This document shows positions 55,901 to 61,900 of a DNA stretch of 64,000 bases, one piece after another. This DNA is from Escherichia coli (lineage in GTDB: Bacteria > Pseudomonadota > Gammaproteobacteria > Enterobacterales > Enterobacteriaceae), in assembly GCF_017348835.2 (NCBI RefSeq), contig NZ_CP071375.1, one strand, 5' to 3'. The position numbers were made by a program. Every line of letters starts with the position of its first letter. The first letter of the stretch is position 1.

Positions 55901-58900
55901 TTATTGTTAGTCATGACTAACAAAATAGATGTTAACAAAAACATAGTCAATACGATTTAGCATTAGCTAACTATGGAAACAAAAAATTTAACTATCGGCG
56001 AACGCATTAGGTATCGTCGGAAAAACCTCAAACACACCCAAAGGTCTCTTGCTAAAGCCCTGAAAATCTCCCATGTGTCTGTATCACAATGGGAACGGGA
56101 TGATAGTGAACCTACAGGGAAGAACCTTTTTGCCCTCAGCAAAGTATTGCAATGCTCACCAACATGGATTCTATTTGGCGATGAAGACAAGCAACCAACA
56201 CCACCTGTTGAGAAGCCAGTTGCCTTATCCCCCAAAGAACTAGAGCTCCTTGAGCTGTTTAATGCACTGCCAGAATCAGAACAGGATACCCAGCTCGCCG
56301 AAATGCGAGCTCGAGTAAAAAACTTCAATAAACTCTTTGAAGAATTACTAAAAGCCCGTCAGCGGACAAATAAAAGATAACATCATCAATGAGTTATCTT
56401 TTACCACATCAATCATGTTAGCCATAACATACAAAATCACTTGACCTATATGTTAGCCATGGCTAATCTTATTTGCATCAACACACCGCACGGTGTTCTC
56501 AGCAAACAGTTCCGCTACCCCGGCGTTAAGGGGAAATGAGGTCAACATGGATACTATCGATCTTGGCAACAGCGAATCTCTGGTATGTGGCGTGTTCCCC
56601 AACCAGGACGGTACGTTCACCGCGATGACGTATACCAAAAGCAAAACGTTTAAAACCGAATCTGGAGCGCGTCGCTGGCTGGAAAGAAATTCAGGTGGGT
56701 GATATGGATTTCGACACAATCATGGAAAAGGCTTACGAAGAATACTTCGAAGGTCTTGCCGAAGGCGAAGAAGCTCTCAGCTTCAGCGAATTTAAACAGG
56801 CACTTTCCAGTTCGGCAAAATCTAACGGCTGATAAGCGAAACAGCACCGCGAGGAATCAGTATGCAGAAACGAGAACCCGTCATCATCGCGCCAGACTAT
56901 ACCGATGATGAACTTTATGAGTGGATGCGCCAGAAAATTAATGCAGCGCAGGATCTGAAATGGGCCAATGAAGCCAGGGCTAAGCAGGCTGAAAATCTGT
57001 CCGCTCTGGAGCAGGATATCACTAATCTGGAAAAAGCAGCGACATTAAGCATTGCCAGAATGATTACATACCCGCGTTAATAGCTAACCAACGAAGCTAA
57101 GGTTGGTAATTAAGGAGTTCTCCACGGATGAGGTGGAGTGCGTGCGCCGGACACGGGTGAGCATCCGGCACTGACAGTTTACTGAAAGGATATTTCCCTG
57201 AAAAGTCAGACCATAACGCGAAAGCGCACGGCGAGGTAGCTGGTTCATAGATAGCCTGTCGTTAAATTTTCGTCGACCGTGCGCTTCCGGTTGTGGCAAT
57301 CCGCGAAATGGCGCGGCGGTAAGTATGGCGGGGTTATTCCTTCCCCCGTTGAGGACACCGGGTTGTCAGGTTGACCATACGCTTAAGTGACAACCCCGCT
57401 GCAACGCCCTCTGTTATCAATTTTCTGGTGACGTTTGGCGGTATCAGTTTTACTCCGTGACTGCTCTGCCGCCCTTTTTAAAGTGAATTTTGTGATGTGG
57501 TGAATGCGGCTGAGCGCACGCGGAACAGTTAAAACCAAAAACAGTGTTATGGGTGGATTCTCTGTATCCGGCGTTAATTGTTAACTGGTTAACGTCACCT
57601 GGAGGCACCAGGCACTGCATCACAAAATTCATTGTTGAGGACGCGATAATGAAAACGTTATTACCAAACGTTAATACGTCTGAAGGTTGTTTTGAAATTG
57701 GTGTCACTATCAGTAACCCAGTATTTACTGAAGATGCCATTAACAAGAGAAAACAAGAACGGGAGCTATTAAATAAAATATGCATTGTTTCAATGCTGGC
57801 TCGTTTACGTCTGATGCCAAAAGGATGTGCACAATGAATTCAGCATTTGTGCTTGTTCTGACAGTTTTTCTTGTTTCCGGAGAGCCAGTTGATATTGCAG
57901 TCAGTGTTCACAGGACAATGCAGTAGTGTATGACTGCAGCAACCGAACAGAAAATTCCCGGTAACTGTTACCCGGTCGATAAAGTTATTCACCAGGATAA
58001 TATCGAAATCCCGGCAGGTCTTTAAAACAGTTCCGTAATAAATATCCGGTTTCATTCTTATATGCCAGCAATGGCAGGGATTTGTTCATCCTTAAATCTG
58101 TCATGAGGTTAAAACAAATGAGTAAAGTCTTTATTTGCGCCGCTATTCCTGACGAACTGGCAACAAGGGAAGAAGGCGCTGTGGCTGTAGCCACAGCCAT
58201 TGAAGCTGGCGACGAACGCCGTGCTCGAGCAAAATTTCACTGGCAATTCCTGGAACATTATCCGGCTGCTCAGGACTGCGCTTATAAATTTATTGTCTGC
58301 GAGGATAAACCTGGCATACCCCGCCCTGCCCTCGATTCATGGGATGCTGAATATATGCAGGAAAACCGCTGGGATGAGGATTCTGCTTCTTTTGTCCCGG
58401 TTGAGACTGAATCCGATCCGATGAACGTCACTTTTGACAAGCTGGCCCCTGAAGTACAGAACGCTGTCATGGTTAAGTTCGACACATGTGAAAACATCAC
58501 CGTTGATATGGTGATTAGCGCACAGGAATTGTTGCAGGAAGACATGGCAACATTCGACGGACATATCGTTGAAGCGTTGATGAAAATGCCAGAAGTTAAC
58601 GCCATGTATCCGGAGCTTAAGCTGCATGCCATCGGGTGGGTTAAGCATAAATGTAAGCCTGGTGCCAAATGGCCCGAAATTCAGGCAGAGATGCGCATCT
58701 GGAAAAAACGTCGCGAAGGTGAACGCAAGGAAACCGGAAAATACACGTCTGTTGTTGATCTCGCCCGCGCCAGAGTCAATCAACAGCACACTGAAAATTC
58801 AACAGGAAAAATCAGCCTGGTCATTGCTGCCATTCATCGCGAATACAAGCAGACATGGAAAACACTGGATGACGAACTGGCCTACGCTCTCTGGCCTGGT

Positions 58901-61900
58901 GATGTGGATGCCGGAAACATTGACGGCAGCATCCATCGCTGGGCAAAAAATGAAGTTATCGACAACTACCGCGAAGACTGGAAGCGTATCTCGGCATCAA
59001 TGCGCAAACAGCCTGATGCCCTTCGCTACGACCGCCAGACTATTTTTGGCCTTGTCCGTGAACGTCCGATCGACATTCACAAAGACCCTGTGGCACTGAA
59101 CAAATACATTACTGAATACCTGACTACAAAGGGCGTGTTTGAAGATGAAGGAACAAATCAGAGCGCAACTGATACTCTCTCGTCGCCAGTACCAGAAACT
59201 GATGCAGTGGAAACGGCAATTCCGGACAACGAAAAAACCGAATGCAAAGTGGAAGTCGAACCATCTGTAGAGCGTGAGGGGCCGTTCTACTTCCTCTTCA
59301 CCGACAAGGATGGCGAAAAATACGGTCGCGCAAACAAACTTTCTGGTCTGGATAAGGCACTGGCTGCCGGGGCTACTGAAATCACGAAAGAAGAATATTT
59401 CGCCCGCAAAAACGGTACATACTCAGGTTCACAACAAAATACTGGTGCATCTGACACGACCGCACAACCAGAGCCGGTAAAAGTTACCGCTGACGAAGTA
59501 AACAAAATTATGCAGGCAGCCAATATCAGCCAGCCTGACGCCGATAAGTTGCTTGCTGCCTCTCGCGGAGAATTTGTTGCAGGGATCAGCGACCCGAATG
59601 ATCCGAAATGGGTTAAGGGGATCCAGACCCGCGATTCTGTAAACCAGAACCAGCATGAATCGGAACGGAACTACCAAAAAGCGGAACAAAACAGCCCAAA
59701 TGCGTTACAAAACGAGCCAGAAACGAAACAACCTGAACCAGTAGTGCAACAGGAACCGGAAAAGATCTGCACCGCCTGCGGTCAGAGCGGTGGCGGCAAC
59801 TGCCCTGATTGTGGTGCGGTGATGGGTGACGCAACATACCAGGAAATATTCGATGGAGAGAATCAGCCTGAAGTTCAGGAAAATGATCCGGAGGAAATGG
59901 AAGGCACTGCGCATCAGCACAAGGAGAACACTGGCGGCAATCAGCATCATGCCAGCGATAGTGAAACTGGCGAGGCGTCAGATCCCTTAATTAAGGCGAA
60001 CAGTCATCATAATCTCACATCCACCAGCAGAGCGGGGATTCATCTGATGATCGACCTTGAAACCATGGGAAAAAATCCCGATGCCCCGATTATCTCAATA
60101 GGTGCAATATTTTTCGATCCGCAAACCGGAGATATGGGACCGGAATTTAGTAAGACTATCGATCTGGAAACTGCTGGCGGAGTCATTGATCGGGACACCA
60201 TTAAATGGTGGCTTAAACAATCACGCGAAGCGCAATCTGCCATTATGGCCGATGAAATCCCGTTAGATGATGCACTGTTACAATTGCGGGAATTTATCGA
60301 CGAAAACTCCGGTGAATTTTTTGTTCATGTCTGGGGAAATGGAGCCAACTTCGACAACACGATTTTGCGCCGTTCATACGAACGGCAGGGGATCCCCTGC
60401 CCGTGGCGTTACTACAACGATCGCGATGTACGCACAATCGTTGAGCTGGGGAAAGCCATAGACTTCGATGCCAGAACGGCTATTCCATTCGAAGGTGAGC
60501 GCCATAATGCACTTGATGACGCCCGTTACCAGGCAAAATACGTTTCAGCTATCTGGCAAAAACTGATCCCGAGTCAGGCTGATTTTTAATGTTCAACCCT
60601 AATTGCCGCTAACCGTATATAGTTAGCGGCGGTTATGAGATATAGCTATGAGCAGCTTATTTTTAACCGAAGATGAATTGCTAATATTAACGGGCTGCAA
60701 ATATGCAAGCCACCAGCGAAAATGGTTAATGGAAAACGGGCTTCCGTTCTATACCAATCGTAGTGGCAAACCGATTGTCAGCCGGGAGCTATTTACCTGC
60801 AATAAAACTTTACCACCACGCGAGGTAGAGCCGAATTTTGGTGCGATCTGATGGGAAGACGAAGGAAAAATCCTGAACACGAAAAATTACCTCCAAATGT
60901 ATACCCAAATAAATATAGTTATGTATGGAAACCAACATCCAGAGAATCTGTAACACTAACCGCCATCAAGGATGGTTTAGCTGCTTTATGGAAAAAGTAT
61001 GAGGAAACTGTAAATAATCGCGATCGTGCAATGACATTCGGTCGCTTGTGGGAAAAATTCCTCGCCAGCGCCTATTACAGTGACCTCAGTCCAAGAACAC
61101 AAAAAGATTATCTGCAACATCAAAAAAAGTTGCTTGCCGTATTCGGTAAGGTGCCGGCAGATTCCATAAAACCAGAACACATCCGTCGATACATGGACAA
61201 GAGAGGGGAGCAGAGTAAAACGCAAGCCAACCATGAAAAAAGCAGTATGTCCCGCGTTTACAGTTGGGGGTATGAGCGAGGGTACGTGAAGGGTAACCCA
61301 TGTGCAGGTGTAAGTAAATTCAAGGCCAAAAACCGCGAACGATATGTAACCGACAAAGAATACCAGGCAGTATTAAGCGTTGCACCTCTTCCTGTTTTTA
61401 TCGCAATGGAAATTGCCTATCTGTGTGCAGCGAGGGTTTCCGATGTGTTATCGCTGAAATGGGAGCAGATTGGAAACGACGGGATCTTTATCCAGCAAGG
61501 GAAAACAGGAAAAAAACAGATAAAAGCATGGAGTCCACGATTACAGGCGGCGATCGAAAAAGCAAAACAGTTACCAACATCCGCCTATGTAATCAGCAAT
61601 CAATACGGCAACCGATATATGTACAAAGGCTTTAACGAAATGTGGGTAGAAGCAAGAAATCGCGCAGGCAAAATTTCAGGTATTTTAACCGACTTCACCT
61701 TTCATGATCTGAAGGCGAAAGGAATTTCAGACTATGAAGGAAGCAGTCGGGATAAGCAACTTTTCTCTGGTCACAAAACCGAGGGGCAAGTGCTAATCTA
61801 TGACAGGAAGGTTAAAGTTTCACCGACACTTGATGTCCCGTTACCTGAAAATATTCCAAGAAAATATTCCAAGTAATTCCAAGTGTGATTTTTGTCACTG

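What the first reader, a model, noticed from the sequence alone, without database searches (positions are those of the whole stretch)
58118..60589. 835-codon early-left protein combining a zinc ribbon with a DEDDh exonuclease
The C-terminal ~190 residues carry all three DnaQ-like exonuclease motifs (MIDLETMG; HVWGNGANFDNTIL; HNALDDARYQ). Upstream is a Cys4 ribbon (CTACGQSGGGNCPDCG) and a long acidic, low-complexity linker; the N-terminal ~350 residues are unassigned. The gene sits where recombination or anti-restriction genes usually are, and no bet/recT partner is evident.
Basis: partly seen in the sequence, partly recalled or inferred. Interest (0 to 1): 0.4.

Follow-up and report, generated by a model that had tools for sequence, protein, structure and literature searches.

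The report
Prophage RecE-like protein with swapped exonuclease
This is the intact form of the E. coli K-12 prophage gene ydfE: a very common but untested 823-residue phage protein that keeps the non-catalytic body of the recombination nuclease RecE, carries a T4 DexA-like 3'-5' exonuclease in place of RecE's own nuclease, and has no strand-annealing partner gene.

Summary
Window 58118-60589 (+) encodes an intact 823-aa protein; the "835 codons" count is the TTG-to-stop ORF from 58082. Its C-terminus is a DEDDh exonuclease (Pfam Rv2179c-like, 1.4e-66) with all five catalytic residues. A CxxC-x7-CxxC ribbon and an acidic linker lie upstream.

It is not unassigned. It matches phrog_2082 end to end, and PGAP calls it "exonuclease". 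3486 of 5426 complete E. coli genomes hold a match covering at least 80% of the locus. It is the last gene of the DicA-repressed dicBF operon of a Qin/mEp460-type prophage. K-12 ydfE is its IS2-truncated remnant.

Residues 246-626, including the ribbon, are homologous to the non-catalytic body of RecE. The N-terminus is Pfam YdfE_N/YdfE_C. Relatives join this scaffold to four different heads:
- the DEDDh exonuclease;
- the RecE-type nuclease;
- a Rad52-fold annealase;
- one unknown domain.

DEDDh versions never have a recT neighbour. The closest solved relative of the head is the T4 DNA exonuclease DexA.

Most likely it is an early-left 3'-5' DNA-end-processing enzyme on a RecE-family scaffold; this is inferred, not shown. 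A defence role like the 5hmC-specific EcD nuclease is disfavoured. Moderate interest: a known sequence family with untested function.

The parts
58118..60589 (+). Complete CDS, 823 aa plus stop. This is the intact homologue of K-12 ydfE and the last gene of the dicBF early-left operon.
   Evidence: ORF list. PGAP CDS 'exonuclease' WP_207184222.1 in the 100%-identical record. phrog_2082 matches 1-823 of 823. GAGG lies 9 nt before the ATG.
58118..58417 (+). Scaffold domain D1 (aa 1-100): a small alpha/beta domain, part of YdfE_N.
58430..58777 (+). Scaffold domain D2 (aa 105-220): helical, part of YdfE_N. Residues 136-336 also align with the Gifsy-1/2 RecE-like proteins.
   Evidence: AF2 model. 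tblastn against phages.
58850..59137 (+). Scaffold 'core' domain D3 (aa 245-340): helical, YdfE_C. It is shared with RecE-family proteins of HK225, mEp237 and Klebsiella phages.
   Evidence: AF2 pLDDT above 93. 40-43% identity to RecE-annotated phage proteins. Present in most of the 63 representatives.
59270..59422 (+). Short conserved module (aa 385-435, EGPFYFLFTDKDGEKYGRANKL...). It recurs in relatives that carry other heads. Function unknown.
   Evidence: BLASTP seed hits in 13 representatives, including ones with Rad52-like and RecE-type heads.
59474..59989 (+). RecE-homologous middle segment (aa 453-624). It holds the conserved block 453-505, a Q/N/E/P-rich spacer, the ribbon, and most of the acidic linker.
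   Evidence: 70% identity to Rac-SA53 RecE residues 471-614. NF007259 positions 271-603.
59768..59812 (+). Cys4 ribbon CxxC-x7-CxxC (C551, C554, C562, C565).
   Evidence: Sequence. Conserved in E. coli RecE and in the 813-aa variant. Absent from all other 50%-identity representatives. Pfam DZR is below threshold.
59828..60040 (+). Acidic, low-complexity linker (aa 571-641).
   Evidence: 21% D+E, 4% K+R. dN/dS about 1.1, consistent with an unconstrained spacer.
60041..60556 (+). DEDDh 3'-5' exonuclease head (aa 642-813). Catalytic residues D646, E648, D746, H796 and D801.
   Evidence: PF16473 E = 1.4e-66. Closest solved relative is T4 DexA (8KEL): 6.6e-6 with the single sequence, 2.5e-19 with a profile. 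dN/dS 0.16.
55973..58055 (+). Upstream part of the same operon: dicA repressor, then ydfA, ydfB, ydfC, the DicF sRNA (57423-57474), dicB, and ydfD (a pseudogene here).
   Evidence: PGAP annotation of the identical record. Rfam DicF 76.7 bits. The operon structure ydfABC-dicF-dicB-ydfDE and its repression by DicA are described in bioRxiv 10.1101/2023.04.14.536235.
60648..61876 (+). Downstream DUF4224 (excisionase-position) gene and tyrosine integrase, then attachment at tRNA-Ser(CGA), 61929-62018.

Best explanation
The gene encodes a modular early-left protein of a lambdoid (Qin/mEp460-type) prophage.

Shown:
- A three-domain N-terminal scaffold (YdfE_N/YdfE_C) is joined to a DEDDh exonuclease head with an intact two-metal active site. 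The join is a roughly 300-residue stretch that includes low-complexity spacers and carries RecE's middle segment and zinc ribbon.
- The scaffold and middle segment are homologous to the non-catalytic body of RecE.
- In relatives the same scaffold carries a RecE-type PD-(D/E)XK nuclease, a Rad52-fold annealase, or an unknown domain instead.
- The gene is the last cistron of the DicA-repressed dicBF transcript.

Inferred:
- The protein is made when the prophage is derepressed.
- The scaffold places the head at the same DNA ends, intermediates or partner that RecE's body targets.
- The head removes nucleotides from 3' DNA ends, as T4 DexA does. It therefore acts in phage DNA-end processing or recombination, or in degradation of linear DNA. 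It would not act as a classical exonuclease-annealase pair, because it has no annealase and the opposite polarity.
For: Catalytic head.
- PF16473 at 1.4e-66.
- The D-E-D-H-D residues are conserved in the window protein and in 9 of the 10 aligned heads.
- The best solved relative is the DNA exonuclease T4 DexA. No solved RNase scored better than E = 0.02.
- dN/dS is 0.16.

RecE relationship.
- NF007259 positions 271-603 match residues 246-626.
- 70% identity to Rac-SA53 RecE, including the ribbon.
- A sister allele at the same locus (813 aa) has RecE's PF06630 N-terminus and the same DEDDh head.

Head swapping on one scaffold.
- 63 long representatives were sorted by N-terminal type and by head.
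- The Rad52 fold of the commonest alternative head is supported by an AF2 model (pLDDT 81.8). Its top six Foldseek PDB hits are all human RAD52, E = 2e-7 to 4e-6.
- dS jumps from about 0.04 in the body to 1.07 in the head between window and Evi alleles. This points to intragenic recombination near the linker.

Genomic slot.
- The gene lies between dicB/ydfD (or kilR) and xis/int in E. coli phages and in three divergent relatives. In Rac that slot holds recE-recT.
- The Rad52-headed relative sits after a weak Gam-family hit.

Expression. The dicBF operon includes ydfDE and is repressed by DicA. No promoter or terminator stands out before the gene.
Against: - No activity, substrate or phenotype is known for this protein or any multi-domain relative.
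- The function of RecE's own N-terminal body is unknown (review PMC11611040), so the homology transfers no mechanism.
- A 3'-5' exonuclease produces 5' overhangs. That is the wrong product for single-strand-annealing recombination, and no annealase is present anywhere in the prophage.
- The Pfam family is named after an exoribonuclease, so an RNA substrate is not excluded.
- One representative (P0230) has lost two catalytic residues.
Confidence: 0.45

Rival explanations
1. Superinfection-exclusion or defence nuclease of the 'HREX'/EcD type. The prophage would use the DexA-like head to destroy incoming phage DNA that carries 5-hydroxymethylcytosine or another modification.
For: - NAR 2025 (PMC12153337) reports that an E. 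coli DexA homologue, EcD, degrades T4 DNA but not unmodified DNA, and protects cells from T4.
- The window head is a homologue of DexA and of the EcD family (37% identity).
- The gene is prophage-borne and very common in E. coli.
- DicB from the same operon already confers phage resistance (title and abstract of bioRxiv 708461).
Against: - EcD is a stand-alone 189-aa protein (identified from the paper's primers and its A78). It is not this multi-domain protein.
- The residues the paper ties to 5hmC recognition and to the dimer-only state are not kept. DexA W152 aligns with Y766, D169 with K779, and D90 stays Asp (D718), where EcD has Ala. The alignment is at 28-37% identity, so this is moderately reliable.
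- The gene lies in the DicA-repressed operon, which is silent in ordinary lysogens.
- It occupies the recombination slot of plaque-forming phages such as mEp460, Tritos and Evi.
Confidence: 0.15
2. Counter-defence or host-takeover nuclease. During lytic growth the head would degrade a host nucleic acid such as retron msDNA, other 3'-ended immune components, or host chromosomal fragments for nucleotide salvage.
For: - It is an early-left gene next to host-directed genes (dicB, kil, ydfD).
- T4 DexA has a documented host-DNA scavenging role (abstract of PMC12153337).
- The absence of an annealase argues against a classical recombinase.
Against: - There is no direct evidence.
- PADLOC gives only a generic DEDDh hit at E = 1e-5.
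- This reading does not explain why the same scaffold carries a Rad52-type annealase or a RecE nuclease in sister proteins.
Confidence: 0.15
3. 3'-5' exoribonuclease, as the Pfam family name suggests, trimming phage or host RNAs. Examples would be processing or turnover of the long dicBF transcript, DicF, or host small RNAs.
For: - PF16473 is defined on the M. tuberculosis exoribonuclease Rv2179c.
- PGAP names some alleles '3'-5' exoribonuclease domain-containing protein'.
- The operon's RNA is heavily processed.
Against: - The only solved structures the head reaches with significance are T4 DexA, a DNase.
- The processing of dicBF RNA described so far uses host RNase III and RNase E.
- The scaffold's relatives are DNA recombination proteins.
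Confidence: 0.12

Closest known systems
RecE (exodeoxyribonuclease VIII) of the Rac prophage
   Same: - Same genomic slot, late in the early-left operon before xis/int.
- Homologous non-catalytic body: residues 246-626 against NF007259 positions 271-603.
- 70% identity over 151 residues, including the CxxC-x7-CxxC ribbon and acidic linker.
- Similar overall size and 'long body plus C-terminal nuclease' layout.
   Different: - The C-terminal PD-(D/E)XK 5'-3' nuclease is replaced by a DEDDh 3'-5' exonuclease.
- The N-terminus is YdfE_N, not PF06630.
- There is no recT downstream.
- The NCBIfam score is 275 bits against an equivalog cut-off of 1269.
T4 DexA (exonuclease A; PDB 8KEL/8KEN)
   Same: - Best solved relative of the head (E = 6.6e-6 single sequence, 2.5e-19 profile).
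- Same DEDDh catalytic residues.
- Phage-encoded.
   Different: - DexA is a stand-alone 227-aa protein with extra loops.
- Only about 28% identity.
- The residues reported for 5hmC recognition (W152, D169) are Y766 and K779 here.
EcD, the 'HREX' defence exonuclease of E. coli (NAR 2025, PMC12153337)
   Same: Same Rv2179c-like/DexA-like fold family, found in E. coli, 37% identical to the window head.
   Different: - EcD is a stand-alone 189-aa protein.
- It has Ala at the DexA-D90 position, where the window protein keeps Asp.
- It keeps Trp and Glu at the 5hmC positions, where the window protein has Tyr and Lys.
K-12 YdfE (Qin prophage) and Pfam YdfE_N/YdfE_C
   Same: - Same locus and synteny (dicB-ydfD-ydfE-...-int).
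- The K-12-type locus matches the start of this gene at 98.8% nucleotide identity (about the first 255 codons), up to an IS2 insertion.
- Near-identical proteins carry PF27430 and PF27432.
   Different: K-12 ydfE is a truncated pseudogene without the middle segment or the exonuclease. The window gene is the full-length form.
Stand-alone Rv2179c-like exonucleases of temperate phages (e.g. Escherichia phage Eeyore)
   Same: 58% identical head, also placed immediately upstream of xis/int at the end of the early operon.
   Different: 190 aa, with no scaffold, ribbon or linker.

Membership tests
DEDDh (DnaQ-like) exonucleases, Rv2179c-like family PF16473 | Match to the family HMM above the curated cut-off | tested here: met
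   224 bits against a cut-off of 27, E = 1.4e-66, residues 642-813 covering profile positions 2-177 of 177.
DEDDh (DnaQ-like) exonucleases, Rv2179c-like family PF16473 | Exo I D-x-E, Exo II D, Exo III H-x4-D catalytic residues | tested here: met
   D646, E648, D746, H796 and D801. Paper numbering for DexA: D7, D119, H186, D191; its first acidic-motif Glu aligns as E9 here, whereas the figure legend prints E12.
DEDDh (DnaQ-like) exonucleases, Rv2179c-like family PF16473 | Metal-dependent 3'-5' exonuclease activity | not testable with these tools
   Needs a biochemical assay.
RecE / exodeoxyribonuclease VIII | NCBIfam equivalog NF007259 above its cut-off | tested here: not met
   275 bits against 1269. 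Only profile positions 271-603 of 877 match.
RecE / exodeoxyribonuclease VIII | C-terminal PD-(D/E)XK 5'-3' nuclease domain | tested here: not met
   No PF12684 or RecE C-terminal similarity. The position is occupied by the DEDDh domain.
RecE / exodeoxyribonuclease VIII | N-terminal Exonuc_VIII domain PF06630 | tested here: not met
   Absent in the window protein. Present in the sister allele of phage vB_EcoS-689R5.
RecE / exodeoxyribonuclease VIII | Adjacent annealase gene recT | tested here: not met
   Next genes are DUF4224 and int. tblastn with RecT finds nothing in the window. The same holds in relatives.
RecE / exodeoxyribonuclease VIII | Homologous central body with the Cys4 ribbon | tested here: met
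   70% identity over 151 residues to Rac-SA53 RecE.
HREX / EcD-type 5hmC-dependent defence exonuclease | Trp (DexA W152) and acidic residue (DexA D169) for 5hmC recognition | tested here: not met
   Y766 and K779 at the aligned positions, where the EcD family has W and E. The alignment is at 28-37% identity, so confidence is moderate.
HREX / EcD-type 5hmC-dependent defence exonuclease | Loss of the tetramer-forming Asp (DexA D90 replaced by Ala in EcD) | tested here: not met
   D718 is retained.
HREX / EcD-type 5hmC-dependent defence exonuclease | Protection against T4 and selective cleavage of modified DNA | not testable with these tools
   Needs plaque assays and nuclease assays.
YdfE family (Pfam PF27430 YdfE_N + PF27432 YdfE_C) | Both domains present at the N-terminus | tested here: met
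   Indirect. The local Pfam copy lacks these models, but precomputed hits are listed for proteins 83-98% identical to residues 1-361 and for relatives P0130 and P0126. K-12 synteny also agrees.
PHROG phrog_2082 ('exonuclease') | Full-length match to the family profile | tested here: met
   1849 bits, residues 1-823 on profile positions 1-823 of 823.
Zinc ribbon | Four Cys in a CxxC-xn-CxxC arrangement, matching a curated ribbon model | tested here: inconclusive
   The pattern is present and conserved with E. coli RecE. Pfam DZR scores 12.9 bits against a cut-off of 27.3. The motif is absent from all other representatives. Metal binding was not tested.

The most novel reading that the evidence does not exclude
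The YdfE/RecE body would be a portable targeting platform that lambdoid phages fit with interchangeable DNA-end effectors: a 5'-3' nuclease, a 3'-5' nuclease, a Rad52-type annealase, or an unknown fourth head. The DEDDh version, present in about two-thirds of E. coli genomes, would then define an annealase-independent 3'-5' end-processing activity not yet described for phage recombination modules. It could act for recombination with host proteins or against host DNA-end-based immunity. Working out what the scaffold binds would also explain the long-unknown role of RecE's N-terminal 560 residues, which boost linear-linear recombineering.
Probability: 0.25. Interest if true: 0.6.

Novelty: new variant of a known kind. 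Interest (0 to 1): 0.4.

Why it matters
The gene is one of the commonest prophage genes in E. coli, and its truncated copy sits in K-12, yet it has no tested function.

If the scaffold is a shared targeting module, it links three things usually treated separately:
- RecE's unexplained N-terminal region, which matters for full-length RecET direct cloning;
- Rad52-type phage annealases;
- DexA-like exonucleases.

It also bears on the recent claim that E. coli DexA homologues are 5hmC-specific defence nucleases. The commonest E. coli homologue found here is a different, multi-domain protein. It lies in a repressed early operon and lacks the residues proposed for that specificity.

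Tried and rejected
Searches that gave nothing useful:
- The single-sequence PDB search reached only DexA.
- PADLOC gave only a generic Cas-associated DEDDh hit.
- The search for homologous proteins with the N-terminus returned only near-identical E. coli fragments. The representative search was needed to see diversity.
- A literature search for RecE with word-start matching was swamped by 'receptor'.
- Searches for Rv2179c in phages, PF16473 and YdfE_N found no characterisation.

Checks with caveats:
- A scan for the EcD reverse primer found nothing. The forward primer found the EcD family.
- The MAFFT pairwise alignment with DexA misplaced the Exo III motif by four residues. 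It was corrected from the H-x4-D register and the L-INS-i alignment.
- A RecT domain on one scaffold protein (P0265) looks like a recE-recT fusion or frameshift. I did not use it as evidence.

Rejected reading: membership of RecE proper and of the EcD/HREX type (see Membership tests).

Full report
**1. What is in the sequence**

- An uninterrupted + strand ORF runs from 58082 (TTG) to the stop at 60587-60589, 835 aa.
- The coordinates given in the finding start at the first ATG (58118), which yields 823 aa. That ATG has a GAGG 9 nt upstream.
- It is the start annotated by PGAP in E. coli PE164 (CDS "exonuclease", WP_207184222.1) and in phage mEp460. PE164 is 100% identical over the locus, and the window matches it from 18391 to 64000.

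**2. Where it sits**

The window is E. coli chromosome carrying a lambdoid prophage integrated at tRNA-Ser(CGA) beside mtfA. The immunity region is of the Qin/dicA type:

- dicC, a ydaT-like gene and replication genes run leftward.
- dicA, then ydfA, ydfB, ydfC, DicF (Rfam 76.7 bits at 57423-57474), dicB, ydfD (a pseudogene here), this gene, a DUF4224 gene, and int run rightward.

The published description of the dicBF operon includes ydfDE in one polycistronic transcript that DicA represses (bioRxiv 10.1101/2023.04.14.536235). I saw no convincing promoter or terminator immediately before the gene.

In a K-12-type genome the same locus matches the start of the gene at 98.8% nucleotide identity (roughly its first 255 codons). 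It is then cut by IS2 and annotated as a pseudogene after ydfD. So the window gene is the intact form of ydfE.

The same gene, at 90-97% DNA identity, is in phages mEp460, Tritos, HannyBb, Evi and the PPompW group. 3486 of 5426 complete E. coli genomes hold a match covering at least 80% of the 2.7-kb query.

**3. Domain anatomy**

- *C-terminal head.* Residues 642-813 match PF16473 (Rv2179c-like 3'-5' exoribonuclease domain) at E = 1.4e-66. The catalytic D646, E648, D746, H796 and D801 are in place.
- *Closest solved relative.* By sequence this is T4 DexA, a DNA exonuclease (8KEL): E = 6.6e-6 with the single sequence and 2.5e-19 with a ten-sequence profile. Nothing else scores better than E = 0.02.
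- *RecE-like body.* Residues 246-626 match the NCBIfam RecE model over its positions 271-603, far below the equivalog cut-off. Residues 474-624 are 70% identical to Rac-SA53 RecE. That stretch contains the CxxC-x7-CxxC ribbon and the acidic linker.
- *N-terminus.* It has no hit in the local Pfam copy. Near-identical database proteins carry two newer families, PF27430 (YdfE_N) and PF27432 (YdfE_C).
- *Whole protein.* It matches phrog_2082 ("exonuclease") end to end.
- *Predicted structure of residues 1-350.* An AlphaFold2 model built on a 30-sequence alignment is confident (mean pLDDT 89.7) but has low pTM (0.44). This fits three independent domains: 1-100 alpha/beta, 105-220 helical and 245-340 helical. 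Residues 221-236 form a disordered stretch.

**4. A scaffold with interchangeable heads**

An exhaustive search of 1.84 billion representative proteins with residues 1-361 found only 168 at E ≤ 0.001. The scaffold family is therefore small. I classified the 63 long representatives with seed searches.

- The N-terminus is either the YdfE type or RecE's PF06630 type.
- Most share the "core" (aa 245-340).
- The C-terminal head falls into four kinds:

| Head | Representatives |
|---|---|
| DEDDh exonuclease | 10 |
| RecE-type PD-(D/E)XK nuclease | about 14 |
| Third domain (Rad52 fold, see below) | about 20 |
| Fourth, unidentified domain | about 11 |

The third head has the motif KKSLTDAxKKALSxLGFSADV and only a sub-threshold Pfam Rad52 hit (E = 0.027). 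I modelled it (pLDDT 81.8). Its top six Foldseek PDB matches are all human RAD52 (E = 2e-7 to 4e-6, probability 1.00), and everything below is noise. It is therefore a Rad52-fold annealase domain.

A sister allele in E. coli phages (813 aa) combines RecE's N-terminus with the same middle segment and DEDDh head, at the same locus.

Between the window and Evi alleles, dS is about 0.04 in the body but 1.07 in the head. This is as expected if heads are exchanged by recombination near the linker.

The zinc ribbon is found only in the E. coli lineage among the representatives.

**5. Selection**

dN/dS between the window and Evi alleles:

| Region | dN/dS |
|---|---|
| Whole gene | 0.26 |
| Domain 1 (aa 1-100) | 0.06 |
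| DEDDh head (aa 642-823) | 0.16 |
| Acidic linker (aa 571-641) | about 1.1 |

The folded parts are under purifying selection. The linker behaves as an unconstrained spacer.

**6. Partner genes**

- In Rac, recE is followed by recT.
- Here, and in three divergent DEDDh-headed relatives, the next genes are xis/int.
- No RecT or Rad52-like sequence is detectable anywhere in the window, and none is annotated in the prophage.
- The Rad52-headed relative sits after kilR and a weak Gam-family hit, and before a Sipho_Gp157 gene. That is again the recombination slot.

**7. The published DexA/EcD work**

NAR 2025 (PMC12153337) reports that T4 DexA switches substrate with temperature. It also reports that an E. 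coli homologue, EcD, cleaves only 5hmC DNA and protects against T4.

Using the paper's primer sequences, I located the EcD family in viral contigs. It is a stand-alone 189-aa protein starting MIDTET with Ala at position 78, as the paper states. It is 37% identical to the window head.

At the positions the paper links to 5hmC recognition and oligomeric state, the window protein differs from EcD:

| DexA residue | Window protein | EcD family |
|---|---|---|
| W152 | Y766 | W |
| D169 | K779 | E |
| D90 | D718 | A |

With its multi-domain build and its place in a repressed operon, the gene should not be filed as an EcD/HREX defence gene. The alignment is at low identity, so this remains a rival at modest probability.

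**8. Interpretation**

*Shown:*
- an intact, selected, very common phage gene;
- a DEDDh exonuclease head closest to a DNA exonuclease;
- a body homologous to RecE's non-catalytic region;
- combinatorial exchange of recombination-type heads on that body;
- no annealase partner;
- a location in the DicA-controlled early-left transcript.

*Inferred:* on derepression the protein acts at DNA ends or recombination intermediates, with the scaffold providing targeting and the head removing 3' nucleotides.

The weak points are these. The RecE body itself has no known function (review PMC11611040). A 3'-5' polarity does not fit single-strand-annealing recombination. No experiment exists for any member.

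The rivals are a defence nuclease, a counter-defence or salvage nuclease, and an RNase. They are listed with the tests that would separate them.

**9. Verdict**

- Its implication of an unassigned, possibly new protein is only partly right. The family is catalogued (PHROG, Pfam, PGAP) and is the full-length form of a named K-12 pseudogene, but it is functionally untested.
- What this analysis adds is the RecE-body homology, the head-swapping pattern including a Rad52-fold annealase, and the distinction from EcD.
- I found none of these three points in the papers I searched.
- Interest is moderate (0.4). I class it as a new variant of a known kind.

Noticed in passing
related proteins P0130, P0131, P0139, P0154 etc. 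(locus L010:5001-7337): About 20 representative clusters fuse the YdfE scaffold to a C-terminal domain that Pfam does not recognise (Rad52_Rad22 E = 0.027). Its AF2 model hits only human RAD52 in PDB (E = 2e-7). PHROGs labels it 'exonuclease' (phrog_7838, phrog_2489), which looks like a mis-annotation of an annealase.
   Followed up: yes
related proteins P0126, P0254, P0221, P0240 (locus L011:5001-7109): A fourth C-terminal head type (about 230 aa; phrog_26058, unknown function) sits on the same scaffold in the same slot between kilR and xis/int. It has no Pfam or PDB sequence match.
   Followed up: partly
related protein P0230 (locus L016:4001-6259): One DEDDh-headed representative has the Exo I Glu replaced by Lys and the Exo II Asp replaced by Ala (DLKTMG, SFANVIL). 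It is probably catalytically dead but still full length.
   Followed up: partly
window 57835-58026: ydfD (the lysis protein gene) upstream of the exonuclease is annotated as a pseudogene with an internal stop in the identical PE164 record. PGAP also calls the integrase at 60851-61901 frameshifted. Several head and tail genes are frameshifted too, so the prophage is probably defective.
   Followed up: partly
window 50900-53500: A low-GC block (0.36) in the nin-equivalent region holds a hypothetical protein, a class I SAM-dependent methyltransferase, and an SMEK-domain protein on the opposite strand, next to hokD. It looks like a moron or possible defence cargo.
   Followed up: no
window 46624-46873: A prophage tRNA cluster upstream of the Q antiterminator gene. 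ARAGORN calls Arg(tct), Arg(tcg) and Met(cat). PGAP annotates the third as tRNA-Ile, that is a CAT anticodon read as Ile2.
   Followed up: no
window 59270-59422 (aa 385-435): A short conserved module (EGPFYFLFTDKDGEKYGRANKLSGLDKALAAGATEITKEEYFARKNG) lies inside the otherwise low-complexity region. It recurs in 13 representatives with different heads and may be a protein-interaction motif. It was not modelled.
   Followed up: partly
locus L007:3230-4567 (Escherichia phage Eeyore): A stand-alone 190-aa homologue of the head (58% identity) lies directly after a gene annotated queuine tRNA-ribosyltransferase and just before xis/int. My own reading is that this neighbour could be a DpdA-like DNA-modification enzyme. 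That would hint at a link between this exonuclease family and phages with modified DNA.
   Followed up: no
window 1-18390: The left 16-18 kb of the window does not match strain PE164, which is otherwise 99.6-100% identical. GC content jumps from about 0.40 to 0.57 near 16 kb, so the prophage's left end or its neighbourhood differs between strains.
   Followed up: no
window 63010-64000: tRNA-Asn lies at 63010-63085. In PE164 it is followed by a second tyrosine integrase and an island with IS66, a MazEF pair and a HEPN-domain protein, so another integrated element begins right after the window's prophage.
   Followed up: no
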